Assembly (NCBI GenBank): GCA_964590155.1
Contig: CAZPWC010000001.1
Coordinates: forward strand, 9,651-73,650
Length of the DNA: 64,000 bases
Reading direction: 5' to 3'
Origin: an uncultured archaeon
GTDB lineage: Archaea; Iainarchaeota; Iainarchaeia; Iainarchaeales; JAAZKV01
This document shows positions 17,693-45,481 of this stretch, piece after piece; the stretch's first letter is position 1, and the number at the start of each line of letters is the position of its first letter. The notes below the pieces were generated by a model. That model ran no database searches, had not been told where the DNA came from, and saw only the letters and a list, made by a program, of their open reading frames with translations. Made by a program: the position numbers and the translations under genes.

Positions 17693-18286
17693 ATGTTACG
17701 CCGACTAGAAACCTTGACAAACGCTGAACTCGCACAACTAAAAGTGCGTTTAGGTGGCAAACCTGTTTTAGTTATTGTTCACCCTTTTTATGACGGCCAA
17801 GGAAAAAGCTTTCAAGAATTCGTCGCAGGTTCAAAAGCACACAACAAGATAATTATTATCGGAGAAGAGCACCAACAAAGACAAGCAACAGAAACTGAAC
17901 TTGAAAAAGCATGCTCGCATAATAAAGCAACCCTCCTTACATACTCAACAAAAACAACGTGCGGAACACCAATAATGGGTTGGCAAAAGCTGTTAAGACG
18001 ACTCGAATTAATGGGGGTAAAACGAGTTGTTCTCGGCGGAAATCATATTAAAGAAGAAAGTGTTAACACCCCAATATTCTGGAAAAGCATACTTTTAGGA
18101 ATAGAAAAAAATAGAAAATTAAACAAAAAAGAGAGAGAAAAACTAAGTACACAAAGAATGCTTCTACGCGCAGCAAAAGCAAGAAAAGCAGAGCACGTGT
18201 TAAGATACTGCGCAGGCTTCACTGCATCAAAACTTGCTGCGAGTGGCAAATTTAAAGTAAAAATGACTCGACATTTTTCTCGATAA
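17693..18286 (+). CDS. hypothetical protein (197 aa), possible paralog of 40099..40683
   Basis: GKPVLVIVHPFY resembles GPVLFLVHPQTH in the other gene. Both follow a tRNA-enzyme gene. Confidence 0.35.
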   Translation: MLRRLETLTNAELAQLKVRLGGKPVLVIVHPFYDGQGKSFQEFVAGSKAHNKIIIIGEEHQQRQATETELEKACSHNKATLLTYSTKTTCGTPIMGWQKLLRRLELMGVKRVVLGGNHIKEESVNTPIFWKSILLGIEKNRKLNKKEREKLSTQRMLLRAAKARKAEHVLRYCAGFTASKLAASGKFKVKMTRHFSR

Positions 18287-18362: not shown

Positions 18363-21335
18363 ATGCCTACAGATTATTTAGCTGAACTAATGAAAGATGC
18401 CAAATTAAAAGATACTGGCAAAATAGAGGAAAAAGAAGTCCCTACAAAACCAGAAGATAAAGAAGAACAATTAGCGCACGAAGCTGGAAAAAAACAAATG
18501 GAAAGTTTTAATGAAACATTTGAAATCGAGCCATCTGATCAAAAAGCCGAAACAGAAAAAGAATTAGAACAAGGGAAAAAAATCCAACTAAAAAGTTATG
18601 GAAATGTAAAAATATTTCAAATCCCAGGAAAGCCACTTAACTATTACTATGTCCCAACAATAAGACCATCAGCTGTTGAAAGAAAAATAATCAATACAAT
18701 AAAAGAAGCGACAACAAGATTAGTTAGCATTGCTTCTTACAAAATAAGAAACCCTGAAGAAAGAAGAATAATATACAAACAAAAAATAATTGAAATAATA
18801 CAAAACAATCCCTCGCTTAACATCCCTGAAAGCAGAGTTAATTATTACGCTGATGCCGTTGTAAGAGAAATGGTTGGATATGGATTAATTGACGAACTAA
18901 TCAAAGATGATAATTTAGAAGAAATAATGATTATCGGTCCGCAAAAACCTGTGTATGTATTTCATAGAGAATTCGAAATGATGACAACAAATGTTGAATT
19001 TTTTTCAGAACAAGAAATAGAAGATTTAATTAACAGAATAGCAAGAGAGGTTGGAAGAAGAGTTGATGTATCATCCCCCTTACTTGACGCAAGATTAATT
19101 GACGGATCACGTGTAAATGCAACTATCCCCCCAGCAAGCATAAGTGGAGGAACACTAACAATAAGAAAATTCAGACAAGACCCTTACTCAATAATTGATT
19201 TAGTGAAAATGGGAACATTAAGCAGTGAAGCGGCAGCGTTCTTGTGGGTTTGCGCTGACGGACTTGGCACAAAACCAGCAAACATACTAATCTCAGGAGG
19301 AACAGGTTCAGGAAAAACTACCCTCCTAAATGTACTTGCTTCATTTATTCCTGACCGAGAAAGAGTAATAACAATAGAAGACACAGCAGAACTAAATCTC
19401 CCAATAAAACACTGGATAAGAATGGAAGCACGACCGCCAGGAATAGAAGGAACTGGAGAACTAAAAATTGACATTCTTACAAAAAATTCACTAAGAATGA
19501 GACCTGATAGAATAATTGTAGGAGAAATAAGACACGAAGAAGCATTTACATTATTTACTGCAATAAATACAGGGCATGATGGAGCAACAACAGAGGATAC
19601 TTTAATTCAAATGGACGACGGCAACATAATCGAAATTGGAAAACTCGCCGAAAAATATATGACCACCCCAACAAAAGAAAAAGAATACGAATTCAGTGAA
19701 ATAAATGAGCCCCTGCTTGTGCCAAGTTTTAATAAAAAAACACTCCAAATAGAACCAAAACAAATAACAAAGATATGGAGAAAAAAAGTAACAGAAATGT
19801 TGTTAAAAATTAAACTAAAATCCGGAAAAGAAATTACAATAACACAAGACCACCCTTTTTATGTCGCACATAACGGAATACAAGAAATAAACGCTGAACG
19901 ATTACAAAAAGGGGATTTTATTTGCACGCCTGAAAAAATCCCATTATTTGCAGAAAGAAAACTAATAGAACCACACCTTGTAGGTCTAATATATGGAGAC
20001 GGACATGTTGGCCAAGAAGTAATAGAATTTGTAAACGCCGAAAAACAACTCGTAAATTCATTCATTGAATCAGCAAAAAATGTCACTCAAAACAAAATAA
20101 CCCAGAAAAGTTATGACAGATATAACCGTGCATTATTTTACGATAAGAAATTTATACGCGCCATGACAAAAGAGTATAATATTCCTCAAGGAAACAAAAC
20201 AAAATCTTTTAAGTTGGGTGAAGAAATACTTTGTGCAGAACAAAGTGAACTAGCACAATTAGTTAAAGGATTATTTGATAGCGAATCCCACGTAAATTTA
20301 CATTCAAACTCAATACAATTTGTTACTTCTAATAAAGATTTAGCAAACAAATTGCCACTCATTTTACAACGCTATGGAATAAAATCAAGCAAATATATAC
20401 AACAAAAAGACGGAAAGGGAAATACAGGACCCTACTACAAAATATCTATTTACGGTTTGGAAAACCTCAAACAATACAAAACATATATTGGATATGAGCA
20501 CACTAAAAAACGAGAAACTCTTGACACCTTATTAAAAAAAGCAAAACTGAGTGTAAATGTTATCCCCGGCTTATCAAAAGTATTAATTAATGCGAGAGCC
20601 GAAAACAATTTAACCCAAAAGGAACTAAGCGCACTTTTAGGAAACTCAACACCAAGCGTCATAAGCGCATACGAAACGAATCAAAGAAATCCAACAAAAG
20701 AACAAATAAAAAAAATAGGCCAAACAATTAATGGAGAAACCGCAAAACAATTAAGCAGACTCGCTGAATCAAAAATATTATTTGAAGAAATAACAGAAAT
20801 TAAAGAAATTAAACACGAAGGATATGTTTACGATTTAACGGTTAAAGATAATCATACATACATCGCAAACGGAACAATAATATCTAATTGCATGGGAACA
20901 GTACACGCAAATAGTCCGCAAGAAACAATAATTAGAGTAACAAACCCGCCGATGAATGTTCCACAAATTATGTTAAGCGGACTTGATTTTATAATTGTTG
21001 AACACAGATATTACGACAGAAAAAAAGGAACAATTAGAAGAGTGAGTGAAATTGCGGAAGTATATGGTGCTTTAGAAGGAAAACCAAGAGTACAAACAGT
21101 ATTTGCAAGAGACCCAGTAAAAGACAAACTAGAAAAAACAATACTTGACAGCTCTTACTTAAAAACCTTACAAGATTTTACTGGATTATCAAGAGAACAA
21201 ATAGAAGCAGAAATACAAATAAGAAAACAATTCTTAGAAAAACTAATTGAGAAAAATATAAGAGGATTAACGCAAGTATCTGAAGAAACAAAAGAATTCC
21301 TTGGCAAACGAAAAATATTCGGTGAACAACAATGA
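18363..21335 (+). CDS. type II/IV secretion-system ATPase (KlbA/FlaI/VirB11 family) interrupted by an intein
   Basis: Walker A ISGGTGSGKTTLLN; split motif NTGHDG | intein | CMGTVHANS. Confidence 0.85.
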   Translation: MPTDYLAELMKDAKLKDTGKIEEKEVPTKPEDKEEQLAHEAGKKQMESFNETFEIEPSDQKAETEKELEQGKKIQLKSYGNVKIFQIPGKPLNYYYVPTIRPSAVERKIINTIKEATTRLVSIASYKIRNPEERRIIYKQKIIEIIQNNPSLNIPESRVNYYADAVVREMVGYGLIDELIKDDNLEEIMIIGPQKPVYVFHREFEMMTTNVEFFSEQEIEDLINRIAREVGRRVDVSSPLLDARLIDGSRVNATIPPASISGGTLTIRKFRQDPYSIIDLVKMGTLSSEAAAFLWVCADGLGTKPANILISGGTGSGKTTLLNVLASFIPDRERVITIEDTAELNLPIKHWIRMEARPPGIEGTGELKIDILTKNSLRMRPDRIIVGEIRHEEAFTLFTAINTGHDGATTEDTLIQMDDGNIIEIGKLAEKYMTTPTKEKEYEFSEINEPLLVPSFNKKTLQIEPKQITKIWRKKVTEMLLKIKLKSGKEITITQDHPFYVAHNGIQEINAERLQKGDFICTPEKIPLFAERKLIEPHLVGLIYGDGHVGQEVIEFVNAEKQLVNSFIESAKNVTQNKITQKSYDRYNRALFYDKKFIRAMTKEYNIPQGNKTKSFKLGEEILCAEQSELAQLVKGLFDSESHVNLHSNSIQFVTSNKDLANKLPLILQRYGIKSSKYIQQKDGKGNTGPYYKISIYGLENLKQYKTYIGYEHTKKRETLDTLLKKAKLSVNVIPGLSKVLINARAENNLTQKELSALLGNSTPSVISAYETNQRNPTKEQIKKIGQTINGETAKQLSRLAESKILFEEITEIKEIKHEGYVYDLTVKDNHTYIANGTIISNCMGTVHANSPQETIIRVTNPPMNVPQIMLSGLDFIIVEHRYYDRKKGTIRRVSEIAEVYGALEGKPRVQTVFARDPVKDKLEKTILDSSYLKTLQDFTGLSREQIEAEIQIRKQFLEKLIEKNIRGLTQVSEETKEFLGKRKIFGEQQ
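19584..20888 (+). mobile_element. Ala1-type intein (435 aa) with LAGLIDADG homing endonuclease and an XRE-like HTH
   Basis: Block A ATTEDTLIQMDDGNIIEIGKL; LAGLIDADG motifs LVGLIYGDGHV and LVKGLFDSESHV; HTH LTQKELSALLGNSTPSVISAYE; ends IISN with Cys+1. Confidence 0.8.
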
Positions 21336-22429
21336 ATGATACTTTTTCATTTGACGAACAAGAAGTAAACAAAATCGTTGACACAATGAAAAAAAAATAT
21401 AAAGAAGAAGGACTTGTAATTGATGAAGTAAATACTAGCTTAAAAGAACTAAGAGGACTTATTGCGGAAGACACTTACTCTAAAATAGATATTGATAATG
21501 CTTCAGATGTTCAAGAAATAAGATCATCGCTAGCAAAAGTATTTGCAAATCTTTATTTAAAAATAAAAGGAATAATTAAACCCGCGCAAAAGTTTTTCAA
21601 AAACTTTACTGTCAGCCAAGAACTTGGATATTACTTATATTCAGCAAATATGAGTTACTCAGCAAACCAATACACAGCAATAGCTGTTACTGCCGGACTT
21701 GTTGTAGGATTATTTACAGCAATAATTGGATTACTAATTGGAATAACAACAAAAAATATTATTTTTATCACAACCCTCCCAATTGTAATTGGACTTATTG
21801 GATGGCTAGTTGGAACAATAATACTACTAATGATTCCAAAACAAAAAGCGGTTGCACGCGGAAATGCTTGCTCTGTTGAATTGCCATTTGCTTTAAGACA
21901 CATGTCAACCGAACTAAGATCGGGAATTGGATTATACAAAACACTACAAGCAGTGGCTTCGTCTAATTATGGAGTACTAAGCGAAGAATTTGCAAGAACA
22001 ATAACAGAAATAGAAGAAGGGGTTGATACAGGGGCTGCGCTAAAACACATGGCGCTAAGAACACAAAGCAAACCACTCAAAACAGTTGTAAACCACATGC
22101 TTAGAGCGATGAGGATAGGAGGAAATCTTTCCGAATCAATGAGCAACATAGCCAAAGATGTTTCTGATGATTTGAAAAACAAAATACTCGCTTTTTCACA
22201 AAACATGAACTTTTTTGCAGTAATATTTATCTTTATAGGAATAATTATTCCAGTAGCAATAATAATTTTAGGAGCAATAAGAAATTCTTCAATTGCAAAA
22301 GTAGGACAGGACTTGTTCAAATCAGTTCCATTAACTTTAGATGTCTTAATAGTAATTTATTTTGTTATAATGCCTATATTATTTATAATAATGAATATAT
22401 TTGTTTACAATGCGCAACCAAAAATGTGA
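21332..22429 (+). CDS. TadC/FlaJ-like pilus assembly membrane protein (single T2SS-F-like domain)
   Basis: Start overlaps the ATPase stop (ATGA). N-terminal soluble region followed by TM helices. Confidence 0.55.
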   Translation: MNDTFSFDEQEVNKIVDTMKKKYKEEGLVIDEVNTSLKELRGLIAEDTYSKIDIDNASDVQEIRSSLAKVFANLYLKIKGIIKPAQKFFKNFTVSQELGYYLYSANMSYSANQYTAIAVTAGLVVGLFTAIIGLLIGITTKNIIFITTLPIVIGLIGWLVGTIILLMIPKQKAVARGNACSVELPFALRHMSTELRSGIGLYKTLQAVASSNYGVLSEEFARTITEIEEGVDTGAALKHMALRTQSKPLKTVVNHMLRAMRIGGNLSESMSNIAKDVSDDLKNKILAFSQNMNFFAVIFIFIGIIIPVAIIILGAIRNSSIAKVGQDLFKSVPLTLDVLIVIYFVIMPILFIIMNIFVYNAQPKM

Positions 22430-23356
22430 GTGAAAAAAATGGGTTTGAATGAAATAGCAGAAAGATATGAGTACTGGGTTGAATTCAGCAAACTCAAATA
22501 CAAAGCAGAACCATGGGTACTAATAGCAATAGGAAGCTCTGTTACAGTCGGAATACTTTCATTCATGCTAAGCGTTGTTATAATAAAAGAAATTACATTA
22601 CTCCCCTTAGCTTTCTTTTTAGCAACATTTGTTTTACTAATGGGCTACCCTTACATGAAAAAAGAGTCAATAATTGATTCAATAGAAGACAATTTTAGTG
22701 ACGCGTTAAAACAAATGGCTGATACATTAAAAGCAGGAGATACTTACGAAAGCGCATTAAGAGAAGTAGCTAATTCTGAATATGGAAGATTATCTGAAGA
22801 AGTTAGCATTGCTTTAAGGAGACTTGAAGAAGGAGCCAACATGGAGACCTCACTAACGGGTCTTGCTGAAAGAATTGACTCAAGACTAGTTAAAAGAACA
22901 ATAACAATAATAGTTGATTCGGTAAAAACAGGAGCAAGCTTGGCCGATGTGCTTGACGAAATATCTGAAGATGTAAGAGAAATACACAAATTAAAAGAAG
23001 ACAGAAAAGCAAATACACAAATGCAATTCTTATTCATGGTCGCGGCAGGAGGATTTATTGCACCAATGATATTTGGAGAAATAACCGCAGTACTATCAAT
23101 ATTCAATGCAATAACAACGCAAGCAACACAAGCAGTTACAACAGCATCAATACAAAAAACTGATCAAGTAATAGCTGTGCTAATTCAAGGATACTTAATA
23201 ATAGAAGTTGTCGGAAGCGGAGTAATGATGGCAGTAACAAGAGAAGGAAAACCAAACAAAGCAATAATTTACATACCTTTATTATTATTAACAGCCTTTG
23301 TCGTATACTATACAACAGCATTTGTTATCAGAGGATTTTTGGCGGGAAGCATATGA
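22430..23356 (+). CDS. TadB/FlaJ-like pilus assembly membrane protein (second T2SS-F-like gene)
   Basis: Same architecture as the preceding gene and adjacent to it. Confidence 0.55.
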   Translation: MKKMGLNEIAERYEYWVEFSKLKYKAEPWVLIAIGSSVTVGILSFMLSVVIIKEITLLPLAFFLATFVLLMGYPYMKKESIIDSIEDNFSDALKQMADTLKAGDTYESALREVANSEYGRLSEEVSIALRRLEEGANMETSLTGLAERIDSRLVKRTITIIVDSVKTGASLADVLDEISEDVREIHKLKEDRKANTQMQFLFMVAAGGFIAPMIFGEITAVLSIFNAITTQATQAVTTASIQKTDQVIAVLIQGYLIIEVVGSGVMMAVTREGKPNKAIIYIPLLLLTAFVVYYTTAFVIRGFLAGSI

Positions 23357-23502
23357 TGGAAGAAAAAGCACAAGTACATTTAGAGTACTTACTAATAGCT
23401 ATTGGAGCAGTTGTTGTAGTAACAGTAGTAGCTTTGTACATTAAAGAAACTGCAAACAGCGCAGCACAAGCAACAATTGATCAAGCAAACCAAAACCCTT
23501 AA
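23353..23502 (+). CDS. short Flp-like prepilin (49 aa), class III signal peptide
   Basis: Hand translation MMEEKAQVHLEYLLIAIGAVVVVTVVALYIK...; not in the ORF track because it is under 60 aa. Confidence 0.5.
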   Translation: MMEEKAQVHLEYLLIAIGAVVVVTVVALYIKETANSAAQATIDQANQNP

Positions 23503-23544
23503 TAATTACTAAAATTAATTAAAGATAAAGAAAACCACTAAAAA

Positions 23545-23550
23545 GGAGGT
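23545..23550 (+). promoter_or_regulatory. Shine-Dalgarno GGAGGT 6 nt upstream of the pilin ATG at 23557
   Basis: aaaaGGAGGTttgattATG. Confidence 0.5.
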
Positions 23551-23556
23551 TTGATT

Positions 23557-23856
23557 ATGGAACAAAAAGCTCAGGCACCAAAGGCGCAGGGAGCAATAGA
23601 ATACCTACTAATAATAGGAGCAGCAATACTAGTAGTAGCAGTAGTAGTAATAGCACTAAGCGGAATAATTGGCGCTGGAAGTGATACTACCGACACAGAA
23701 GCAATAAATAGCACTTATAATGCACTGCAATGTCAAAAAGACTGCGGATATTTAGATGACGAAAGCGAAACATGCTGTGATTCATATAAAGACTATTGCA
23801 CATTACAAGGTCCGGACAGTGCAAAAACCTGCCAAAAAATAATTCCCGCGGAATAA
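23557..23856 (+). CDS. prepilin, Cys-rich paralog 1 (QGAIEYLL family)
   Basis: MEQKAQAPKAQGAIEYLLIIGAAILVVAVVVIAL, then a C-terminal domain with 7 Cys. The ORF-track start at 23551 is TTG. Confidence 0.6.
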   Translation: MEQKAQAPKAQGAIEYLLIIGAAILVVAVVVIALSGIIGAGSDTTDTEAINSTYNALQCQKDCGYLDDESETCCDSYKDYCTLQGPDSAKTCQKIIPAE

Positions 23857-24022
23857 ATAAAATTTAAACAAAGAAGGAAAGGAGAAGTAAAATCCTTTCC
23901 AACTTTCTTTTTTTAGACAAACCAAACTACAACAAATACAAAGTAAATCTAACAATAAGCCAACCTTTATATATCACTTATTTTATAGTTAAGTCAACGA
24001 AACCCCAACGGAGGTAATGAAA

Positions 24023-24298
24023 ATGGAAAAAAACGGACAAGGAGCAATAGAATACCTACTAATCATAGGAGCAGCAATACTAGTAGTAGCCGTAGTAGTA
24101 ATAGCACTAACTGGAGTACTAGATGCTGGTAATGATCAAACAAGCGATACTGATGTAGAAACATCACTTATGGCGCTAGAATGCCAAAAAGACAGCACAT
24201 ATTCACCAATGACATCACCTACTCAAACATGTTGTACAGAATTCCCTACGGAATATACAGCTACAAGCGGGACATGTTTACCAATAACAACCGCATAA
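24023..24298 (+). CDS. prepilin, Cys-rich paralog 2
   Basis: MEKNGQGAIEYLLIIGAAILVVAVVVIAL is near-identical to paralog 1 at the N-terminus. SD GGAGGT at 24010-24015. An alternative ATG lies at 24017. Confidence 0.6.
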   Translation: MEKNGQGAIEYLLIIGAAILVVAVVVIALTGVLDAGNDQTSDTDVETSLMALECQKDSTYSPMTSPTQTCCTEFPTEYTATSGTCLPITTA

Positions 24299-24496
24299 AA
24301 TAATTTTAACTAAAATTGGAAAGGAAAACAAAATCCTTTCCACTTTTTCTTTTTATCTGAACTTTCTTAAGCGCCAAAAAATTGCGAAGCAAAGCCAATC
24401 ACAGAGTGGTTGGCTCCCATACGCTCGCCTGCCCTTTAGGGGTGGGCCGGGCAAGCAATGCGATAGCTTTAAATTTAGAAAAAAGTTTAGATAGTA

Positions 24497-24835
24497 GTGG
24501 TGGTTGTTATACAAAGAGGACAGGGAGCAATAGAATACTTACTTCTTTTAGCGGCAGCAATTGTTGTTGTAGCAATAGTTGTTTCATTTTTGGGTTCAAC
24601 AATAGGGCCTGTCCAAGATACGGGCGACAATGAAACATACTCATACTTATGCGAACCAAAACCACAAGGACTTGAATCAGGCACTGCACAATGCGCATGC
24701 TATAATGGAAATTCGAACAATTACTTTGATACCACCGCAGAAGCAAAAGAGTATTGTTGCGAAGGGCAAAATAGCGCTTATTTGAAAATGAAATGGAACC
24801 AATCACGAACAGTTGATGCTGAAAAGTGTTCATAA
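24497..24835 (+). CDS. prepilin, Cys-rich paralog 3 (GTG start or degenerate)
   Basis: RGQGAIEYLLLLAAAIVVVAIVV; no ATG and no clear SD. Confidence 0.45.
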   Translation: MVVVIQRGQGAIEYLLLLAAAIVVVAIVVSFLGSTIGPVQDTGDNETYSYLCEPKPQGLESGTAQCACYNGNSNNYFDTTAEAKEYCCEGQNSAYLKMKWNQSRTVDAEKCS

Positions 24836-24850
24836 TAGAAGGAATTTTTT

Positions 24851-25021
24851 ATGGAAGAACGAGCACAAGTAAGTTTTGAATATTTGCTAACAGCGGTTTT
24901 TGCAATAGGATTAGCTATAAGCGCCGCAATATTAATTGAAACACTAAGACAACTTGCTTTGGAAGCCCAAGCAGAACTATTAACAGTAAGAACAAGAGTA
25001 ATAGAAGGATTAATGCAATAA
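24851..25021 (+). CDS. short Flp-like prepilin (56 aa)
   Basis: MEERAQVSFEYLLTAVFAIGLAISAAILIE resembles the 23353 gene. Confidence 0.5.
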   Translation: MEERAQVSFEYLLTAVFAIGLAISAAILIETLRQLALEAQAELLTVRTRVIEGLMQ

Positions 25022-25120
25022 CACAAATTATTGAAAGGACAACAAAAAACAAATTAATTAAAAGAAAAAACACAAAAAGCAACTTTTTTAATAAGGAAAA
25101 ACAACAATTAGCTGATACTA

Positions 25121-26209
25121 ATGATATATTATTTGCCAATAATAGTTTCCGTAATCGGACTAAGCATAGCAACATACACTGATCTGAAAGAAAGGATAGT
25201 TACAAACAAACTTAATTTTGGGTTAGCTGGAATTGGACTAATTCTTTACGGGATAATTGCAGTAATGGAAAACAGCCCGATAATATTTCTAATGTCAATT
25301 TTGGGTTTAATGTACGGATTTGTTTTCGGGTGGATCTTATGGAAACTCGGAATATTTGCTGGAGGGGATGTAAAATTATTCATGGCTTTAGGCGCGCTAA
25401 ATCCGCTAACACCCGCACTAGTACAAACAGGGATACTAACAACATCAAACACCCCCCTATTTCCAATAACTTTGTTTATTTATTCATTGGTTTCTTTCCT
25501 CCCTTACGGATTTTTAGTAGTGCTGCAAAAACTAAGCAAAAATAAAGAATTCAGAAAAAAATTGTGGATAGAAACAAAAAAAAGAATAGCTGACGGAATA
25601 AACCTATCTGTTTTTTCAGGGGCGCTGTACACAATATTTACTACGACTCAAATCCCCACTCTAATAGTTCTGCCACTAATAATTATTTGGGGATTAAGAA
25701 AAGAAAGAAATGCTTTGACAGTCGGAGCAACTCTTGCAGCAATAATAATTTCTCCGCAAGAATTTGTAAAAAATATTTTTGCAACACTAATAATAGTTGT
25801 AATTATTTACGGAATAATAAAATTAATGCTGTCACTAAGACCGCTACTTGTAAGCGAGGTAAATGTAAGCAAATTAGAAGAAGGGATGATTCCTGCAAAA
25901 ACACTTGTATGGAAAGGAAAAAAAGTTGTTGAAATTGAACCGCTTTCCATCGCAAGCGCATTTATGGCGCTAAAAAAAAGAAAAACAACAGAACTATTAA
26001 AACCAAGAAAAGAGATAATTTCTGCAATGAAAGCACGAGGATTGATTAATGAAGAAATCAAAGAACTAAAAACACTCGCAAAAAAAGGATTAATAAGCAA
26101 AAAGATGCAAATAAAAGAATCAATGCCCTTTGTGCCAACAATGTTAATAGGATACATCATTTGTTTAATTGCAGGCGACGCAATATGGATAGTTATTTTT
26201 GGATTGTGA
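25121..26209 (+). CDS. prepilin/preflagellin peptidase (A24 family, FlaK/PibD/EppA-like)
   Basis: Catalytic Asp motifs TDLKERIVTN and FAGGDVKLFMALGA; polytopic membrane protein. Confidence 0.75.
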   Translation: MIYYLPIIVSVIGLSIATYTDLKERIVTNKLNFGLAGIGLILYGIIAVMENSPIIFLMSILGLMYGFVFGWILWKLGIFAGGDVKLFMALGALNPLTPALVQTGILTTSNTPLFPITLFIYSLVSFLPYGFLVVLQKLSKNKEFRKKLWIETKKRIADGINLSVFSGALYTIFTTTQIPTLIVLPLIIIWGLRKERNALTVGATLAAIIISPQEFVKNIFATLIIVVIIYGIIKLMLSLRPLLVSEVNVSKLEEGMIPAKTLVWKGKKVVEIEPLSIASAFMALKKRKTTELLKPRKEIISAMKARGLINEEIKELKTLAKKGLISKKMQIKESMPFVPTMLIGYIICLIAGDAIWIVIFGL

Positions 26210-26218
26210 AGTGATACA

Positions 26219-26662
26219 ATGAAAAGAGGACAAACTTCAATAGAGTTCATATTTTTGATACTAATAATAGTTATTTACTTAGTGACAATAGTTCGACCAG
26301 CATTTGATAGCGCGCAAAGCTCTTTTGAGGACATAGATAAAGTAACAAAAGCAAGCAACGAAACACAAAAAATAGTAAACTCAATAAACAGAATAAGCTC
26401 ACTAAGTGATGGGTCAAAAGAAACACTATTCATTACTTTGCCGGAAGGAGTGGAGATAAATTGTTATAACGAAGGAAAACTTGATTTTATGGTAGAAATA
26501 AATACTAATGGCATAAACCCCAACATAGAAAGCTGCGCAAAAGATGTGTGCCAAAAAGAATATCAAACGTCGCCACTCAACTGTGAAATTACACAAATAC
26601 TTGGCGCAGAAAAAATAATTGTAGAAAAAGATGGAACAACAATAACAATAAAAGTCGGGTGA
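26219..26662 (+). CDS. prepilin-like protein
   Basis: MKRGQTSIEFIFLILIIVIYLV class III signal. Confidence 0.55.
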   Translation: MKRGQTSIEFIFLILIIVIYLVTIVRPAFDSAQSSFEDIDKVTKASNETQKIVNSINRISSLSDGSKETLFITLPEGVEINCYNEGKLDFMVEINTNGINPNIESCAKDVCQKEYQTSPLNCEITQILGAEKIIVEKDGTTITIKVG

Positions 26663-26666
26663 TTAT

Positions 26667-27002
26667 TTGAGAGGACAAGTAGCATTTGAAACACTATTTG
26701 TGTTTGTAATAATACTAACCACAACAATCTTTCTAACAAGTCTTTTTTTGCAAACTAACGAAGCAACAATATCAGAAAGCTTAGCTAGAAATGCGGTAAC
26801 TGAACAAGCCGCTTTGCAGGGAAAAAAAATTGTTATAGAAAGTGTTTCTTTTGAAAAAACAACAAATATAATAATAACAATAAATGTAATGTGCGAAGAA
26901 ATCCAAGAAACGATATTTGACACCCAAAAAATAGAAGATCTAATTGAAGAAAAAACAAGCGCGCAAAATGCGGGAATAGTAATAAATAAAAAGCAACTCT
27001 AG
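26667..27002 (+). CDS. prepilin-like protein
   Basis: MRGQVAFETLFVFVIILTTTIFL. Confidence 0.5.
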   Translation: MRGQVAFETLFVFVIILTTTIFLTSLFLQTNEATISESLARNAVTEQAALQGKKIVIESVSFEKTTNIIITINVMCEEIQETIFDTQKIEDLIEEKTSAQNAGIVINKKQL

Positions 27003-37152: not shown

Positions 37153-38685
37153 TTAGCCTTCAGAAGAAACCATTTCCAAAACTTTCTTAGGATTATAATA
37201 ATAGGTTTGGATAACTTCCAAAACATCTAATGGTTTTGAAACGTTCTTTTCAATCATCCACTCAATAATCATCCTCCGCGTATCAATTTCTTTTTTGATT
37301 TCATTTTTTGTTAAACCTGACTGCGCTGCTAAAGAATCCATTAAATGACTCGGCACATCAGTTCTGCGAACGCAACCTTTTGCTTCATCAAAGTCATAAA
37401 TATTTCCGAGTAAAACTTTGTTCTCCATCCTAGAAACTTCAGCAATTTCCACAATTGTTCTCTTAAGACCGCTGTTTTTTGTGAACTTTCTTTGCATAAC
37501 AACAATTAAATCAACTAAAGGAAGCATTGATTGAGGAACAGAAAAAGGGCGCTCCTGCAATTTAATAATTGCTTCGCGGGAATTATTAGCATGAACTGTT
37601 CCCAAACAACCAGCATGACCATTATCCATTGCAGTAAAAAGAGTTGTTGCTTCTTCACCACGAACTTCCCCAACAATTAATCGATCAGGACGCATACGCA
37701 AAGAGTTCTTCAACAACTGATTCATTGTTACCTCTTCATCAATAGAGTGCTTCGCTTCAAGAGCAACCCAATTATCCCGACCAAGCAAAGACAATTCCAA
37801 AGTATCCTCAATACTTATAACACGCTCGTGCAAGCGCATAAAATTCGCCAATATATTTAGCATAGTTGTTTTACCTGAAGCTGTGCCCCCAACAACCAAA
37901 ATATTTTTTGGAAAAGCACCAAAACCATCAACAACAACCCACAAAAAAGCCGCTACTTCAGAAGAACAGGTTCCGCCAGAAACCAAATCAAGAACTGTCA
38001 AAGGAGTGGGAGAAAATTTTCGAATAGTAATTGAAACCCCTTTTGGAGAGATCTCAGAAAACGTAGCATTAACACGCGAACCATCAGGCAAATGCGCATC
38101 AAGCAAAGGAAATTTTTCATCAAAAGACTTTCCAGAACTAACAGCAATCTTTCTTAGCAAAGCATCAATTGATTTTTCATCAAGAGACAAATTAACTTTA
38201 CACATCCCAAACTTTTTATGAAAAACAAAAATGCTGTCAGGAGCATTAACCATTAGTTCTTCTAATTCATCATCAAAAGAAAAAAAGTAAAGTTGTTTCA
38301 AACCAATCGCATTATGCAAAACAATCTCGGCAAACAATCCTTTATTTGAAACAAAAGAAACTTTTGAAACAAGATCAATCATTGATTCAAGAAGAGAAAG
38401 AAAAATTGTTTTAGAAGGCAAAACATCAACTAAACCATTAATTTCAACAACAGAAACGATTTGGTCACGAAAAGAATCAGAAAAATCTTTTGGCAAAGAA
38501 AAAGAATTAAGTTCGGAAAAAGGACTCTTACGCTGAATTATTTGCTGAAGCGATTTAGCAAATTTTGATTCTTTTTCCGAAAGAGGAAACTCTCGCAAAA
38601 CATAAAAGTTATTTGAAACACCCTCAAAAATCTCGGCAAAATCTGATTCAGCAAGCTTTTTTAGCCGCATATCTGTGAAGTCCAT
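37153..38685 (-). CDS. second type II/IV secretion-system ATPase (FlaI/TadA-like), no intein
   Basis: VVGGTASGKTTMLNILANF and contiguous AMDNGHAGCLGTVHANNS. Confidence 0.8.
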   Translation of the reverse strand: MDFTDMRLKKLAESDFAEIFEGVSNNFYVLREFPLSEKESKFAKSLQQIIQRKSPFSELNSFSLPKDFSDSFRDQIVSVVEINGLVDVLPSKTIFLSLLESMIDLVSKVSFVSNKGLFAEIVLHNAIGLKQLYFFSFDDELEELMVNAPDSIFVFHKKFGMCKVNLSLDEKSIDALLRKIAVSSGKSFDEKFPLLDAHLPDGSRVNATFSEISPKGVSITIRKFSPTPLTVLDLVSGGTCSSEVAAFLWVVVDGFGAFPKNILVVGGTASGKTTMLNILANFMRLHERVISIEDTLELSLLGRDNWVALEAKHSIDEEVTMNQLLKNSLRMRPDRLIVGEVRGEEATTLFTAMDNGHAGCLGTVHANNSREAIIKLQERPFSVPQSMLPLVDLIVVMQRKFTKNSGLKRTIVEIAEVSRMENKVLLGNIYDFDEAKGCVRRTDVPSHLMDSLAAQSGLTKNEIKKEIDTRRMIIEWMIEKNVSKPLDVLEVIQTYYYNPKKVLEMVSSEG

Positions 38686-42480: not shown

Positions 42481-44529
42481 ATGATAACTTCACTTGAGCT
42501 AAAAAATTGGAGAACACACTCTGACACCAAACTGGACTTTGGAAAAGGAACAAATGTTATAGTTGGAGTAATGGGCTCTGGAAAAAGCTCAATTGTTAAC
42601 GCAATATCTTATTCTTTATTTGGCACTTTTCCAGGATTAAAAAACAAGAGCGTTTCACTAAAAGAAATAATAATGAACAAACCAAATCAAATGAGCACCG
42701 CAGAAGCCGCGATAGAAATTGAACAAAATGAAACAAAACACCGCGTAGAAAGAATAGTAAAAATGGACGGGACAAACGAAGCGAAGCTATATACTAATGG
42801 AAAATTTGTTGCAGGACCAAAACAAAAAGATGTAAACGAAAAAGTGGAAAAAATACTTGAAATGGATTATGAACTATTTAGCAGAGCTGTTTATTCGGAA
42901 CAAAACGAAATGGATTTCTTTCTAAAATTAACTCCGGGAGAAAGAAAAAGAAAATTTGATGAGCTTTTGCAACTGGAAAAATATGAAGAAGCGAGGAAAA
43001 ATTCTGTTTCTCTACAAAATGAACTAATGAAAGAAAGCAAACAAAGAGAAAAAACTTTAGAACAGCAAAAAGAAATGCTAAAAAACCATGAAGAAGAAAA
43101 ATTAACAAAACAAATAAAAGAAATTGAAGAAGAAATAAAAGAAACACTAATAAAAGCGGAGCAGGCGAAAAAAGAAAATAGAGAACTAGAAAAGAAATAT
43201 AAAGAACTGGCGGAAAAAGAAGAGAAAGCAAGAACTTTAGAGGACAAGATAACTAAAACAAAATCAAAAATAGAAATGCTACAAGAAGAACTTAAAAAAA
43301 CTGAAAAATTAGATGCAAAAGACATTATGGAAACAATAGAAAAATTAAAGAAAGAAATTAAAACACAAAAAGAAAATGAAAAAGAAATTGAAACAAAAGC
43401 AAAAGAAGTTGACACAAAAATAAAAACTATTAGCGAAGAGGTAAAAGTGCTAAGTTACAAAATTAAAAAATATGAAGAAGAAATAAAAGAAATATCCTCA
43501 TTAAAGGGAAAATGCCCCACATGCAGACAGGAAATGGACGAGACACACAAAGAAAAAATAGTTGAGGAAACACACGGGCAAATGCAAAAATCACTTGCAG
43601 AGAAAAAAGAACACGAAACAAACAAATCCAAATTGTTGGACAAATTTTCTTCTCTTGAGAAAACTCTAAGAGATATAAGAAAAAACATTGAGGAAAAGCA
43701 AAAAGAAATTTACATCACCGAAGAAAAAGAGAAAAAATCAAAAGACCTTGAAGAAAAACGAAAAATGCTTGGAGAACTAAACGAAGTGCTCCCTTTAATG
43801 GAAAAACAATCAAAAGAAAACGGTTTTGACAAAAAAGAGCTTAATAAAATAAGAGAACTATTTTTTGAAAAAAAGAAAGAAACAGAACTATTTGAAGCCA
43901 AAGCTAAAGCAAAAACAGAGCTAAAAAAAAGCTATGAAACTATTTTAGCAAAAGTTGAGCAAATAAAAAAAACAATACAAGAAACAGAAAAAGAAACTAT
44001 AAAATATTCTGAATCTTCAAGAAAAATGAGTGTATTTGCAAGCTGCCTAATTGCAACACAAGGGGAATTACGAGAAGAAATGCTTCAAACAATAAACAAA
44101 GCAATGACAAACATTTGGCAAGCAATATACCCTTACGCTGACTTTGTTGATGCAAAACTTTGTGTAACAGAAGAAGGATATGATTTACAAGTACTTACAA
44201 GAACAAACCAATGGACGCGCGTAGAAGGAATACTTTCAGGCGGAGAAAGAAGCGCTGCAGCCCTATGCATAAGAATGGCTTTCGCACTAGTACTAACAAA
44301 AAACCTATCAATGCTAATACTTGACGAACCAACACACAACTTAGATGCTAACGCGGTTCAAAAACTAAGTTCAATGCTTAGAGAAGAAATGCCAAAATTA
44401 GTTGAACAAATATTTGTTATAACACATGATAAAGAACTTGAAAGCGCGGCATCAAGCAACCTTTATTTATTACAAAGAAACAAGAATAATGATGAAGCGA
44501 CAAAAATAGAAACAATGCCAATAATGTAA
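42481..44529 (+). CDS. rad50: Rad50/SbcC-family ATPase with coiled coil and zinc hook
   Basis: Walker A GVMGSGKSS; central CPTC zinc hook within Lys/Glu-rich coiled coil; signature LSGGERSAAALCIRMAFA; Walker B LILDEPTHNLD. Confidence 0.7.
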   Translation: MITSLELKNWRTHSDTKLDFGKGTNVIVGVMGSGKSSIVNAISYSLFGTFPGLKNKSVSLKEIIMNKPNQMSTAEAAIEIEQNETKHRVERIVKMDGTNEAKLYTNGKFVAGPKQKDVNEKVEKILEMDYELFSRAVYSEQNEMDFFLKLTPGERKRKFDELLQLEKYEEARKNSVSLQNELMKESKQREKTLEQQKEMLKNHEEEKLTKQIKEIEEEIKETLIKAEQAKKENRELEKKYKELAEKEEKARTLEDKITKTKSKIEMLQEELKKTEKLDAKDIMETIEKLKKEIKTQKENEKEIETKAKEVDTKIKTISEEVKVLSYKIKKYEEEIKEISSLKGKCPTCRQEMDETHKEKIVEETHGQMQKSLAEKKEHETNKSKLLDKFSSLEKTLRDIRKNIEEKQKEIYITEEKEKKSKDLEEKRKMLGELNEVLPLMEKQSKENGFDKKELNKIRELFFEKKKETELFEAKAKAKTELKKSYETILAKVEQIKKTIQETEKETIKYSESSRKMSVFASCLIATQGELREEMLQTINKAMTNIWQAIYPYADFVDAKLCVTEEGYDLQVLTRTNQWTRVEGILSGGERSAAALCIRMAFALVLTKNLSMLILDEPTHNLDANAVQKLSSMLREEMPKLVEQIFVITHDKELESAASSNLYLLQRNKNNDEATKIETMPIM

Positions 44530-44531
44530 AA

Positions 44532-45257
44532 CTAAAAACCAAGAATATTCCTTACTCGGTTTATTTCTTCACGAATTTCTTCCACTGAAGAAAAAGGCAT
44601 ATCTTCTTCAATAACAAAAGGAACACTCAAGTCCTGCAATGGCTCAATTGATTTTAGAAAAGCTCTGCTTACCTTCAAACAAGGACTATGATCTTTGTGG
44701 TACCTATTATTGCTAAAATGAACTGCTTTTATTCGATGTTTCCATTTTTTTACAATTCTTTCGGTTTCTTCAGCACCCCAATCGTAAGCATGAGAAGCGT
44801 CAAGACACAAACCCCAATCAGTTTTTTCTTCCAACATTTTTTCAAATCCATCCCTTGGACGATTTTTGCCTTTCTTTGGATTCAAGTTTTCGGTAACAAA
44901 AGACATTTTAGGCAAATTAGTAGGAAGCACACTATTTGGGTGAAACACAATATGTTGTGCATTCATTTTTTTGTAGTCCAACGCAATCAAATTAATAATT
45001 GAATTAAAATTTTCTTTCGGCATTAAGTCAAGTGAAAGTCTAAACGGAGAATGAATGCTGACATACTTGTAACTTCTTAATGTGCCCAAATCTTTTTCAC
45101 TAGGTTTTCTTTCTTCATAATGCTTCCCATAAGTATACTCAACCCCATCAATGTCAAGCGAAGAAATAATTTCAAAAATATCTTTTTTCCCGATTAAACG
45201 CCAAAGATTTCCAGTGGCAAAACAAAGAGCCCGCATAGTTAACACTTGAAGAAACAA
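44532..45257 (-). CDS. xylose-isomerase-like TIM-barrel protein (sugar-phosphate isomerase/epimerase or AP-endonuclease-2-like fold)
   Basis: Overall resemblance only. Confidence 0.4.
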   Translation of the reverse strand: MFLQVLTMRALCFATGNLWRLIGKKDIFEIISSLDIDGVEYTYGKHYEERKPSEKDLGTLRSYKYVSIHSPFRLSLDLMPKENFNSIINLIALDYKKMNAQHIVFHPNSVLPTNLPKMSFVTENLNPKKGKNRPRDGFEKMLEEKTDWGLCLDASHAYDWGAEETERIVKKWKHRIKAVHFSNNRYHKDHSPCLKVSRAFLKSIEPLQDLSVPFVIEEDMPFSSVEEIREEINRVRNILGF

Positions 45258-45277
45258 ACAAAAAAAGAATTAATAAC

Positions 45278-45481
45278 TTATTTAGCAGCGTCTTTTTCTT
45301 TTCTTTTAGCTAATCTAACAATATAACCAGCAACAATATTTCTAATGGTTTTTGAGAAACCGAGTTCCATTGTTGAAAGTTCTTTCTTGTTTTTTTCAAA
45401 ATTGTTTCCAAACTTTTCAGGAAACTCTCTTAACAAAACTTCGCCCTTGTATTTCAAAACTTTTGAAACTGATTTACCCAT
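45278..45481 (-). CDS. rps17e: 30S ribosomal protein S17e
   Basis: MGKSVSKVLKYKGEVLLREFPEKFGNNFEKNKKELSTMELGFSKTIRNIVAGYIVRL. Start trimmed to MGK within ORF 45278..45502. Confidence 0.65.
   Translation of the reverse strand: MGKSVSKVLKYKGEVLLREFPEKFGNNFEKNKKELSTMELGFSKTIRNIVAGYIVRLAKRKEKDAAK

What the first reader, a model, noticed from the sequence alone, without database searches (positions are those of the whole stretch)
19584..20888. Ala1 (KlbA-type) intein with LAGLIDADG homing endonuclease and extra HTH inside the pilus ATPase
The secretion ATPase at 18363..21335 has its conserved NTGHDG / (C)MGTVHANS motif split by 435 codons. The insert starts with Ala (ATTEDTLIQMDDGN, intein block A with Ala instead of Cys/Ser) and ends IISN followed by Cys+1. 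It carries two LAGLIDADG motifs (LVGLIYGDGHV, LVKGLFDSESHV) and an XRE-like HTH. Ala1 inteins that splice by direct attack of the +1 nucleophile are established for KlbA-family ATPases (M. jannaschii KlbA), but that one is a mini-intein. This one is full length with an endonuclease and an additional DNA-binding module, sitting in the motor of the pilus locus.
Basis: partly seen in the sequence, partly recalled or inferred. Interest (0 to 1): 0.7.

Follow-up and report, generated by a model that had tools for sequence, protein, structure and literature searches.

The report
Full-length KlbA-type intein in pilus ATPase
The pilus-motor ATPase gene of this DPANN archaeon is interrupted by a self-splicing protein element (an intein) of the rare Ala-first "class 2" type that still carries its homing nuclease and a DNA-binding helper domain. 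The description is correct, but the same element sits at the same site in at least twenty other archaeal genomes, so it is an ordinary new member of a known family.

Summary
ORF 18363..21335 (990 aa) is a T2SSE/CpaF/FlaI-type ATPase. Its NTGHDG|CMGTVHANS motif is split by a 435-codon in-frame insert (19584..20888).

- **Domains.** The insert matches Pfam Intein_splicing (7e-26), LAGLIDADG_3 (1.8e-14) and HTH_3 (6e-10).
- **Excision.** Removing it gives a 555-aa protein that is 69-78% identical, end to end, to more than 100 intein-free homologues. One of these lies in a fully syntenic pilus locus.
- **Identity.** It is the same intein allele as the M. jannaschii KlbA (MJ0781) class 2 intein: same insertion site, Ala1, block B T..H, block F Asp/Tyr, penultimate Ser, terminal Asn, Cys+1.
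- **Fold.** The predicted fold (pLDDT 87.7) superposes on the TliVMA intein (TM 0.79). That published architecture is HINT + homing endonuclease + HTH-like accessory domain.
- **Distribution.** The full-length form is not rare. I verified 21 other species-level genomes with a 433-438 aa version at this site (Iainarchaeum, Micrarchaeota, a Thermococcus MAG, Methanothermococcus sp. Ax23). All 18 copies scanned, the window's included, carry HTH_3.
- **Mini-inteins.** These nest inside full-length clades, and Mja KlbA differs only by lacking the nuclease + HTH module. They therefore look like deletion derivatives.

Verdict: a real feature, correctly interpreted, and a new member of a known kind. 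Interest is low to moderate.

The parts
18363..21335 (+). Precursor gene: T2SSE/CpaF/FlaI-type secretion (pilus assembly) ATPase with an in-frame intein, 990 aa plus stop
   Evidence: Single ORF. Pfam T2SSE 3.5e-38. 49%/41% identical to M. jannaschii MJ0781 across both junctions.
18363..19583 (+). N-extein (aa 1-407), ends ...FTAINTGHDG
   Evidence: Aligns contiguously with the C-extein to intein-free homologues of about 555 aa at 69-78% identity.
19584..20888 (+). Intein, 435 aa, from Ala1 to Asn435
   Evidence: Pfam Intein_splicing 7e-26. Best PDB sequence hit is the Mja KlbA intein 2jmz at 1.1e-26. AF2 model pLDDT 87.7, and Foldseek TM 0.79 to the TliVMA intein 7qss.
19584..19943 (+). HINT N-terminal lobe (intein aa 1-120) with block A (Ala1, 19584..19625) and block B (ITITQDHPFYV, 19833..19865; Thr87 = B:7, His90 = B:10)
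   Evidence: Thr87, Asp89 and His90 are invariant in 22 full-length orthologues and in the mini-inteins. Aligns to Mja KlbA residues 12-132.
19965..20558 (+). LAGLIDADG (double-motif) homing endonuclease domain, intein aa 128-325. Motif 1 is at 19977..20009 (acidic residue Asp139) and motif 2 at 20259..20294 (acidic residue Glu234).
   Evidence: Pfam LAGLIDADG_3 1.8e-14. Two alpha-beta-beta-alpha-beta-beta-alpha halves in the model. Foldseek matches I-DmoI and I-Tsp061I. Asp139 is kept in 21/22 and an acidic residue at 234 in 21/22 orthologues; Lys278 is invariant.
20559..20768 (+). Accessory domain (intein aa 326-395): XRE/Cro-C1-type helix-turn-helix. The Pfam HTH_3 match is aa 336-383 = 20589..20732.
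   Evidence: HTH_3 6e-10, above the gathering cut-off. Five helices in the model. Weak PDB sequence hits to MBF1/EDF1, C.Esp1396I-like, HigA and Xre proteins. HTH_3 is present in all 18 full-length copies scanned, the window's included. Its position matches the ACD of TliVMA and PI-TkoII.
20769..20888 (+). HINT C-terminal lobe (intein aa 396-435): block F (GYVYDLTVKDNHTYIA, 20820..20867; Asp417 = F:4, His424 = F:13, Tyr426 = F:15) and block G (NGTIISN, 20868..20888; Ser434 = G:6, Asn435 = G:7)
   Evidence: Asp417, Tyr426, Ser434 and Asn435 are invariant in 22 orthologues. Aligns to Mja KlbA residues 135-166.
20889..21335 (+). C-extein. The first codon (20889..20891) encodes Cys+1, followed by MGTVHANS...
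   Evidence: Cys+1 is conserved in every copy of this allele examined. It is contiguous with the N-extein in intein-free homologues.
21332..23356 (+). Two T2SSF (TadB/TadC/FlaJ-like) membrane platform genes downstream (21332..22429 and 22430..23356)
   Evidence: Pfam T2SSF 4.3e-22 and 3.8e-16.
23353..27002 (+). Small pilin-like genes with class III signal peptides (23353..23502, 23551..23856, 24017..24298, 24497..24835, 24851..25021, 26219..26662, 26667..27002) and an A24 prepilin peptidase (25121..26209)
   Evidence: QGAIEYLL-type N-termini are visible in the translations. Pfam Peptidase_A24/Arc_PepC and Class_IIIsignal. The same gene order occurs in the intein-free relative L081.

Best explanation
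This is a full-length class 2 (KlbA-type, Ala1) intein. It is the same allele as the M. jannaschii MJ0781 KlbA intein, inserted between Gly407 and Cys843 of the type IV pilus assembly ATPase of a Diapherotrites/Iainarchaeum-like DPANN archaeon.

**Splicing (inferred by homology to Mja KlbA).** The 990-aa precursor folds. Because residue 1 is Ala, no N-S acyl shift can occur. [quoted passage not shown] Asn435 then cyclises and releases the intein, without a penultimate His because G:6 is Ser. A final S-N shift restores the NTGHDG-CMGTVHANS motif and yields an active 555-aa ATPase.

**Homing (inferred from anatomy and conservation).** The released 435-aa intein is a monomeric double-motif LAGLIDADG homing endonuclease whose XRE-type HTH accessory domain adds DNA contacts. 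It would cut the uninterrupted allele at or near the NTGHDG|C codons, and recombinational repair would then copy the intein gene into that allele.

**Shown here:** the insert, its domains, its orthology to Mja KlbA, the residues conserved across orthologues, and the existence of empty syntenic alleles.

**Inferred:** splicing competence, the direct-attack chemistry, nuclease activity and the target site.
For: - **Exact junctions and intact frame:**
- **Domain profile hits:**
- **Closest solved relative is the Mja KlbA intein:** 1.1e-26 by sequence. The alignment to MJ0781 is colinear through both splice junctions; the only large difference is that Mja lacks residues 525-804 of the window's protein.
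- **Class 2 signature as defined in PMC4031507:** orthologue of Mja KlbA, Ala1, Ser G:6 and Cys+1, all present here. Across 22 full-length copies (the window's and 21 others), T87, H90, D417, Y426, S434 and N435 are invariant and A1 is kept in 20/22.
- **Excision restores the host protein:** the spliced extein matches more than 100 intein-free homologues at 69-78% identity and 100% coverage.
- **Empty syntenic allele:** L081 has the same gene order and a site 52/60 nt identical.
- **Fold:** AF2 pLDDT 87.7 and pTM 0.84. TM 0.79 to TliVMA, then PI-PfuI, PI-TkoII and PhoVMA; I-DmoI matches the nuclease core.
- **Nuclease and HTH look maintained by selection:** their mean pairwise identities are 0.48 and 0.43, against 0.49 for the N-terminal HINT lobe. 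The catalytic acids are kept in 21/22 copies. HTH_3 is found in all 18 copies scanned.
- **Patchy distribution, as a homing cycle predicts:** close relatives have no intein, a mini-intein or the full-length form. Mini-inteins nest within full-length clades.
Against: - No experiment supports this; splicing and cleavage are inferred.
- The second LAGLIDADG motif ends in Ser rather than Gly (DSESHV). This is shared with the orthologues (Ser, Ala or Gly at that position) but is untested for activity.
- The nearest intein is only 57% identical and the intein's GC content equals the host's (0.32 versus 0.34). Nothing therefore shows recent mobility in this genome.
- One orthologue (L004) has an in-frame stop, so some copies of this allele are decaying.
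- The paralogous ATPase in the same window has an unoccupied, similar site (45/60 nt). This is compatible with site specificity or with an inactive nuclease.
Confidence: 0.88

Rival explanations
1. The intein still splices, but its endonuclease is inactive. The element would then be fixed and inherited vertically, and the nuclease and HTH domains would be relics on their way to deletion.
For: Mini-inteins have arisen repeatedly from this allele. One full-length copy has an internal stop. The HINT-only tree groups roughly by host lineage: Micrarchaeota, Iainarchaeum, Methanococci/Thermococcus. No near-identical intein was found elsewhere; the best is 57%. PhoVMA is a published case of an intact-looking but inactive endonuclease intein.
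Against: The catalytic Asp139 and Glu/Asp234 and Lys278 are conserved in 21-22 of 22 copies. The nuclease and HTH domains are as conserved as the N-terminal splicing lobe, which is not what neutral decay would give. HTH_3 is still detectable in all 18 copies scanned.
Confidence: 0.25
2. The insert is a dead, non-splicing intein and the ATPase gene is effectively a pseudogene. Pilus assembly would then rely on the paralogous ATPase at 37153..38685.
For: A second T2SSE ATPase is encoded in the window. Splicing was not tested.
Against: The 990-codon frame is intact. All splicing residues are intact and identical to those shown to be important in Mja KlbA. The exteins are 78% identical to intein-free orthologues, with no sign of decay. 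The paralogue is only 45% identical and is not in the pilus operon.
Confidence: 0.03
3. The intein has been co-opted as a post-translational switch. One version: because every splicing step depends on the Cys+1 thiol, maturation of the pilus motor is redox-gated. Another: the excised intein's XRE-type HTH moonlights as a transcription factor.
For: Conditional (redox or stress-dependent) splicing is documented for other inteins, for example the titles and abstracts of PMC6195587 and PMC11409957 listed. The HTH is a bona fide Cro/C1-type domain.
Against: Close relatives with the same syntenic locus do without the intein, so no essential regulatory role is implied. HTH accessory domains are a generic feature of endonuclease-inteins in unrelated hosts such as MCM and SRP54. 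No operator-like repeats were sought or found.
Confidence: 0.06

Closest known systems
Methanocaldococcus jannaschii KlbA (MJ0781) intein, the prototype class 2 / Ala1 intein (PDB 2JMZ, 2JNQ)
   Same: The host protein family and the exact insertion site are the same (NTGHDG | A... SN | C.GT.HANS). So are Ala1, block B T-x-x-H, block F Asp and Tyr, Ser at G:6, Asn at G:7 and Cys+1. The splicing lobes are 42-49% identical.
   Different: Mja KlbA is a 168-aa mini-intein. The window's copy has about 280 extra residues (LAGLIDADG nuclease + HTH) between the two HINT lobes. Mini-inteins nest inside full-length clades, so Mja KlbA looks like a deletion derivative of this type.
Full-length orthologues of the same allele in public genomes, for example archaeon GW2011_AR10 (CP010424.1), Methanothermococcus sp. 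Ax23 (NZ_CP157522.1), Thermococcus sp. JdFR-02, and Iainarchaeum and Micrarchaeota MAGs
   Same: Same site, length 433-438 aa, the same three Pfam domains and the same catalytic residues.
   Different: Only 38-57% identical to the window's copy. None of these copies appears to have been characterised; I found no paper describing them.
TliVMA intein (PDB 7QSS), with PI-TkoII (2CW7), PI-PfuI (1DQ3) and PhoVMA (7QST): HINT + HEN + accessory domain architecture
   Same: Three-domain layout with the accessory domain between the nuclease and the C-terminal HINT lobe. Whole-chain TM is 0.79 to 7QSS. The TliVMA and PI-TkoII accessory domains are described as HTH-like and as modulating DNA cleavage (PMC8966425).
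   Different: Those are class 1 inteins (Cys1/Ser1, penultimate His) in other host genes (VMA, Pol, RNR). Sequence identity is only 15-20%.
I-DmoI / I-Tsp061I monomeric double-motif LAGLIDADG homing endonucleases
   Same: The fold of the nuclease core (TMt 0.6-0.7). There is one acidic residue per motif, Asp in motif 1 and Glu in motif 2, as in I-DmoI. The I-DmoI comparison rests on my own knowledge of D21/E117.
   Different: Those enzymes are free-standing and intron-encoded, with no HINT or HTH domain.
Class 3 inteins (MP-Be DnaB type)
   Same: They also lack an N-terminal nucleophile.
   Different: Class 3 inteins are defined by the Trp-Cys-Thr triplet with Cys at F:4 and usually Thr/Ser+1 (PMC2807308). 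Here F:4 is Asp417 and +1 is Cys, so this is not class 3.

Membership tests
Intein (HINT splicing domain) | An in-frame insert whose removal restores a contiguous, conserved host protein | tested here: met
   The spliced 555-aa extein matches more than 100 intein-free homologues at 69-78% identity and 100% coverage. P0019 and P0026 read NTGHDGCLGTVHANS. A syntenic empty allele exists in L081.
Intein (HINT splicing domain) | Splicing blocks A, B, F and G, with a C-terminal Asn and a +1 nucleophile | tested here: met
   Pfam Intein_splicing 7e-26. T87/H90 (block B), D417/H424/Y426 (block F), S434-N435 (block G) and Cys+1.
Intein (HINT splicing domain) | Autocatalytic protein splicing | not testable with these tools
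   Needs expression and detection of the ligated exteins and the free intein.
Class 2 (KlbA-type, Ala1) inteins | Orthologue of the Mja KlbA intein: same host protein and same insertion site | tested here: met
   BLASTP to MJ0781 is colinear through both junctions. Best PDB hit is 2jmz at 1.1e-26. Multiple alignment with Methanocaldococcus copies.
Class 2 (KlbA-type, Ala1) inteins | Non-nucleophilic Ala at position 1 | tested here: met
   Codon 19584..19586 encodes Ala, and the junction is fixed by the intein-free homologues. Ala is present in 20/22 full-length copies.
Class 2 (KlbA-type, Ala1) inteins | Ser instead of His at G:6, together with Asn at G:7 and Cys+1 (PMC4031507) | tested here: met
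   ...IISN|C. S434 and N435 are invariant in 22 copies.
Class 2 (KlbA-type, Ala1) inteins | No class 3 WCT triplet (Cys at F:4) | tested here: met
   F:4 is Asp417, invariant. The class 3 definition comes from PMC2807308.
Class 2 (KlbA-type, Ala1) inteins | Direct attack of Cys+1 on the N-terminal scissile amide, with no linear thioester | not testable with these tools
   This is a biochemical property shown for Mja KlbA. Here it is inferred by orthology.
LAGLIDADG homing endonuclease (monomeric, double-motif) | Two LAGLIDADG helices, each ending in a catalytic acidic residue, within two alpha-beta-beta-alpha-beta-beta-alpha halves | tested here: met
   LVGLIYGDG (Asp139) and LVKGLFDSES (Glu234). 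Pfam LAGLIDADG_3 1.8e-14. Secondary structure of the model. Foldseek hits to I-DmoI. Conservation across orthologues.
LAGLIDADG homing endonuclease (monomeric, double-motif) | Site-specific double-strand cleavage of the intein-less allele | not testable with these tools
   A candidate target exists: the L081 empty allele, 52/60 nt identical to the reconstituted site.
HTH_3 (Cro/C1/XRE-type helix-turn-helix), acting as the intein accessory domain (ACD) | Profile match above the Pfam gathering score, and a helical bundle lying between the nuclease and the C-terminal HINT lobe | tested here: met
   39.4 bits against a cut-off of 23. Helices at residues 331-394 of the model. Position as in the TliVMA and PI-TkoII ACDs. 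Present in all 18 copies of this allele scanned, the window's included, and in 23/32 more distant inteins.
Archaeal type IV pilus (Tad/Flp-like) assembly locus | ATPase, T2SSF platform proteins, pilins with class III signal peptides, and an A24 prepilin peptidase, all clustered | tested here: met
   The same order occurs in the relative L081. Whether the filament is an adhesive pilus was not tested.

The most novel reading that the evidence does not exclude
The class 2 'Ala1' splicing chemistry may be much broader and more tolerant than the literature I could read describes ('all class 2 inteins have Ala1'; five orthologues). This allele is spread across DPANN archaea, Methanococcales and a Thermococcus MAG, mostly as a full-length mobile element. 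Natural copies have Met, Val, Ser or Arg at position 1, or His at G:6. If the nuclease is active, this copy and its relatives would be a natural series for finding what makes direct amide attack by Cys+1 possible. They would also provide a new family of HTH-assisted meganucleases. A bolder version is that total dependence on the Cys+1 thiol makes pilus-motor maturation redox-gated in these episymbiotic archaea.
Probability: 0.15. Interest if true: 0.5.

Novelty: new member of a known kind. Interest (0 to 1): 0.22.

Why it matters
The find changes little conceptually. It is one more copy of the KlbA intein allele, with the standard HINT + endonuclease + accessory-domain build.

Its modest value is threefold.

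- **Origin of the textbook example.** Together with its orthologues, it indicates that the textbook class 2 mini-intein (Mja KlbA) is a deletion derivative of a full-length HTH-assisted homing intein, and that class 2 inteins are common in DPANN archaea.
- **Material for mechanism work.** The family offers mesophilic class 2 inteins and natural position-1 variants (Met, Val, Ser, Arg). These could help explain how Cys+1 attacks an amide directly, a question PMC4031507 says "remains to be fully determined".
- **Annotation.** The 990-aa product should be recorded as a 555-aa pilus ATPase plus an intein, not as a novel large ATPase.

Tried and rejected
- **Primary KlbA papers not available.** I tried to read Southworth 2000 (PMC314217), Johnson 2007 (PMC2206692) and Saleh 2011 (PMC3231794) to check whether endonuclease-containing KlbA inteins were already catalogued. 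None is held, and the one supplement look-up was empty.
- **Pyrococcus KlbA inteins unverified.** I recall, from memory only, that InBase listed roughly 520-aa Pyrococcus KlbA inteins with a DOD endonuclease. I could not verify this. Text searches for 'Pho/Pfu/Pab KlbA' found nothing. Neither the genome scan nor a protein search seeded with the Thermococcus copy returned Pyrococcus. I therefore do not rely on it.
- **Long extein hits are not inteins.** P0081, P0085 and P0124 (863-970 aa) are tandem ATPase fusions without inteins, so I discarded them.
- **Shifted junction rejected.** I considered a junction that would make Thr2 or Thr3 the first residue, giving a class 1 intein. It would leave an extra Ala in a motif that is NTGHDGC in all intein-free homologues.
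- **Class 3 rejected.** F:4 is Asp, not Cys.
- **Foreign composition rejected.** Intein GC is 0.32 against 0.34 for the exteins.
- **Not attempted.** dN/dS, because the closest copy is 57% identical and synonymous sites would be saturated.
Full report
**1. The observation**

The window has one uninterrupted ORF at 18363..21335 (+) encoding 990 aa. Residues 408-842 (nt 19584..20888, 435 codons) begin ATTEDTLIQMDDGN immediately after NTGHDG and end IISN immediately before CMGTVHANS.

Pfam places T2SSE on the flanks (3.5e-38). On the insert it places three domains:
- Intein_splicing, 7e-26 (91 bits against a 35.8 cut-off);
- LAGLIDADG_3, 1.8e-14 (intein residues 223-303);
- HTH_3, 6e-10 (residues 336-383; 39 bits against a cut-off of 23).

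Chance is not a reasonable explanation. GC content is 0.32 for the insert and 0.34 for the exteins, against a window average of 0.34.

**2. Is it an insertion in a conserved protein?**

I joined the two flanks conceptually (555 aa) and searched the protein collection. More than 100 archaeal homologues of about 550-570 aa match at 69-78% identity over 100% of the query. Sources name them CpaF family, FlaI or TadA, mostly from Candidatus Diapherotrites / Iainarchaeum. The best two, P0019 and P0026, read ...FTAINTGHDGCLGTVHANSPQETI... with no gap.

- The junction is therefore Gly407|Ala408 and Asn842|Cys843. It cannot be slid, because no boundary residue is repeated across it.
- The gene for P0019 lies in a locus (L081) with the same gene order as the window: RFC, Nre, ThrRS, ATPase, two T2SSF, pilins, A24 peptidase, TctA. 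There the ATPase is 557 aa with no intein.
- The two extein genes are 79% identical in DNA. The 60 nt around the insertion point are 52/60 identical.

**3. Which intein?**

The best solved relative by sequence is MJ0781, the M. jannaschii KlbA intein (2jmz/2jnq, 1.1e-26). It matches both the N-lobe (residues 5-118) and the C-lobe (398-429).

A direct BLASTP of the 990-aa precursor against the M. jannaschii protein (P0293) runs colinearly through both splice junctions:
- NTGHDGATTEDTLIQMDDGN against NTGHDGALAYDEPIYLSDGN;
- GTIISNCMGTVHANS against GFAVSNCSGTLHANS.

Identity is 49% and 41% in the two pieces. The only large difference is that the window has about 280 additional residues (525-804 of the precursor) where Mja has a short linker.

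Reviews define class 2 inteins as orthologues of Mja KlbA with Ala1, Ser at G:6 and Cys+1. They splice by direct attack of Cys+1 on the N-terminal amide (PMC4031507; PMC2807308). The window's intein has every sequence feature:
- Ala1;
- block B Thr87 and His90;
- block F Asp417 (F:4, the residue proposed to activate Cys+1 in Mja), His424 and Tyr426 (F:15, important in Mja);
- Ser434, Asn435 and Cys+1.

It is not class 3, because F:4 is Asp and not the Cys of the WCT triplet.

**4. The middle of the intein**

An AlphaFold2 model built on 12 homologues is confident (mean pLDDT 87.7, pTM 0.84, no segment below 50). Along the chain it shows:
- a beta-rich HINT N-lobe;
- two alpha-beta-beta-alpha-beta-beta-alpha halves;
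- a five-helix bundle (residues 331-394);
- the closing HINT beta-hairpins.

Foldseek against the PDB gives these matches:

| Structure | PDB | E-value | TM |
|---|---|---|---|
| TliVMA intein, whole chain (best match) | 7qss | 4.6e-29 | 0.79 |
| PI-PfuI | 1dq3 | 1.2e-26 | 0.73 |
| PI-TkoII | 2cw7 | 2.6e-22 | 0.69 |
| PhoVMA intein | 7qst | 9.4e-21 | 0.63 |
| PI-SceI (best entry, 1ef0) | 1ef0 | 8.1e-12 | 0.49 |

I-DmoI and I-Tsp061I match the nuclease core.

Beyer et al. 2022 (PMC8966425) describe exactly this build. It is HINT + homing endonuclease + an 'accessory domain' between the nuclease and the C-terminal HINT part. They report that the accessory domains of TliVMA and PI-TkoII resemble helix-turn-helix DNA-binding proteins and modulate cleavage.

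Here the domain is recognisable by sequence as Cro/C1/XRE type. Weak PDB sequence hits go to MBF1/EDF1, a C-protein, HigA and Xre proteins.

The nuclease has one acidic residue at the end of each LAGLIDADG helix: Asp139 in LVGLIYGDG and Glu234 in LVKGLFDSES.

**5. How common is this form?**

- **Exhaustive HMMER search** with the intein against 1.84 billion representatives. It found five 50%-identity clusters aligned over the full 435 residues: P0002 and P0139-P0142, at 38-55% identity.
- **Scan of one genome per GTDB species.** L001-L024 are the matches at 38-57% identity. For 21 of them I verified a 433-438 aa insert at the identical site, NTGH[DER]G | ... SN | C.GT.HANS. L013, L017 and L024 are cut by contig ends.
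- **Hosts of the verified copies.** Iainarchaeum and Micrarchaeota MAGs, the complete genome of archaeon GW2011_AR10, a Thermococcus MAG, and the complete genome of Methanothermococcus sp. Ax23.
- **Domain content.** All 18 full-length copies I scanned, the window's included, carry Intein_splicing + LAGLIDADG_3 + HTH_3.
- **Conservation across the 22 full-length copies** (the window's plus 21):
  - the splicing residues are invariant;
  - Asp139 is kept in 21, an acidic residue at 234 in 21, and Lys278 in all;
  - mean pairwise identity is 0.48 for the nuclease and 0.43 for the HTH, against 0.49 for the N-lobe and 0.57 for the C-lobe.

  The nuclease module is therefore evolving under constraint comparable to the splicing domain, which argues for function.
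- **More distant inteins.** Of 32 more distant intein-containing proteins from the same search (16 in MCM, 11 in T2SSE ATPases, 5 in SRP54-type GTPases), 23 carry HTH_3. The nuclease + HTH cassette is thus generic among archaeal inteins.

**6. Relationship to the mini-inteins**

Mini-inteins of 166-265 aa occupy the same site in Methanocaldococcus and Methanothermococcus and in some Iainarchaeum genomes.

- In a neighbour-joining tree of the HINT lobes only, the Methanococcales mini-inteins group with the full-length Methanothermococcus Ax23 copy.
- The Iainarchaeum mini-inteins fall among full-length Iainarchaeum copies.
- Some mini-inteins keep a remnant of the last accessory-domain helix, for example ...QIQILVESDLRFEKI in P0006 against ...QLSRLAESKILFEEI here.

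This pattern suggests that the nuclease + HTH module was lost independently at least twice. Mja KlbA differs from the full-length form only by lacking that module, so it looks like a deletion derivative of the type found in this window. Close relatives have no intein, a mini-intein or the full-length form. That is the pattern expected from the homing cycle of invasion, fixation, decay and loss. One full-length copy (L004) already has an in-frame stop.

**7. Context**

Downstream of the ATPase are:
- two T2SSF platform genes;
- several small genes with class III signal-peptide N-termini (QGAIEYLL...);
- an A24 prepilin peptidase with archaeal C-terminal domains;
- two more pilin-like genes.

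'Pilus locus' is a fair description. A second T2SSE ATPase at 37153..38685 (-) is 45% identical to the spliced extein. Its equivalent site (DNGHAG|CLGTVHAN, 45/60 nt identical) is unoccupied.

**8. Mechanism, with status of each step**

Shown by sequence:
- the insert and its domains;
- its orthology to Mja KlbA;
- the conserved residues;
- the existence of empty alleles.

Inferred from the biochemistry of Mja KlbA:
- the precursor cannot form a linear thioester at Ala1;
- Cys+1 attacks the Gly407-Ala408 amide directly to give the branched intermediate;
- Asn435 cyclises without a penultimate His;
- an S-to-N shift yields the 555-aa ATPase with its NTGHDG-C motif restored.

Inferred from anatomy and conservation:
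- the free intein is a monomeric LAGLIDADG endonuclease that cuts the uninterrupted allele around the insertion point;
- the HTH accessory domain supplies extra DNA contacts;
- repair copies the intein into the cut allele.

I put about 0.99 on 'intein', about 0.85-0.9 on class 2 chemistry, and about 0.6-0.7 on a currently active nuclease.

**9. Comparison, novelty and score**

This is a member of the KlbA/class 2 intein family by every sequence-level criterion I could test. It has the known HINT + nuclease + accessory-domain architecture.

I found no paper describing the full-length form of the class 2 allele. The primary KlbA papers were not available to me. From memory, InBase listed long Pyrococcus KlbA inteins with endonuclease motifs, but I could not verify that.

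Whatever the literature says, the same element is present and machine-annotated in many public genomes, so this copy is a new member of a known kind. A specialist would not be surprised. The main points of interest are that class 2 inteins are widespread in DPANN archaea, that the textbook mini-intein looks like a derived form, and that position 1 varies naturally (see the items noticed in passing). I score interest at 0.22.

Noticed in passing
L006, L045 (=P0006), P0143 (Met1); L008 (Ser1); P0151 (Val1); L028 (Arg1); P0141 (ends HN): In other copies of this same intein allele, position 1 is not always Ala. Met, Val, Arg and even Ser occur directly after NTGHDG, and one copy has His instead of Ser at G:6. 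The reviews I read state that all class 2 inteins have Ala1 and Ser G:6. This natural variation suggests the direct-attack mechanism tolerates bulky or charged residues at position 1, or that some of these copies no longer splice.
   Followed up: partly
window 37153..38685 (-); site about 37579..37638: A second, intein-free T2SSE ATPase paralogue is present (510 aa, 45% identical to the spliced extein). Its homologous site, DNGHAG|CLGTVHAN, is 45/60 nt identical to the reconstituted homing site and is unoccupied.
   Followed up: partly
window 17693..18286 (+): A 197-aa ORF with no Pfam match sits between ThrRS and the ATPase. In the otherwise syntenic relative L081 the two genes are separated by only about 135 nt, so this ORF is an insertion in the window, or a loss in the relative, of unknown nature.
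   Followed up: no
L004:219-1523: A full-length orthologue of the intein (55% identical) carries an in-frame stop codon at intein residue 396, just before block F. It is either a decaying copy or an assembly error.
   Followed up: no
L008 (JAFCBY010000013.1): A contig labelled Candidatus Falkowbacteria (a CPR bacterium) carries an archaeal-type pilus ATPase with this intein. This is probably a binning error rather than a bacterial occurrence.
   Followed up: no
P0144-P0194: The LAGLIDADG + HTH_3 cassette recurs in inteins of unrelated archaeal host genes: 16 MCM, 5 SRP54-type GTPases and other T2SSE sites. Some of these proteins carry several inteins (up to 8 matched stretches). The cassette looks like a module shared among intein families.
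   Followed up: partly
window 42481..49074: A Rad50-like gene (42481..44529, with zinc hook) and a HerA-like helicase (47539..49074, DUF87) lie close together. This probably reflects the archaeal Mre11-Rad50-HerA-NurA repair cluster and is unrelated to the finding.
   Followed up: no
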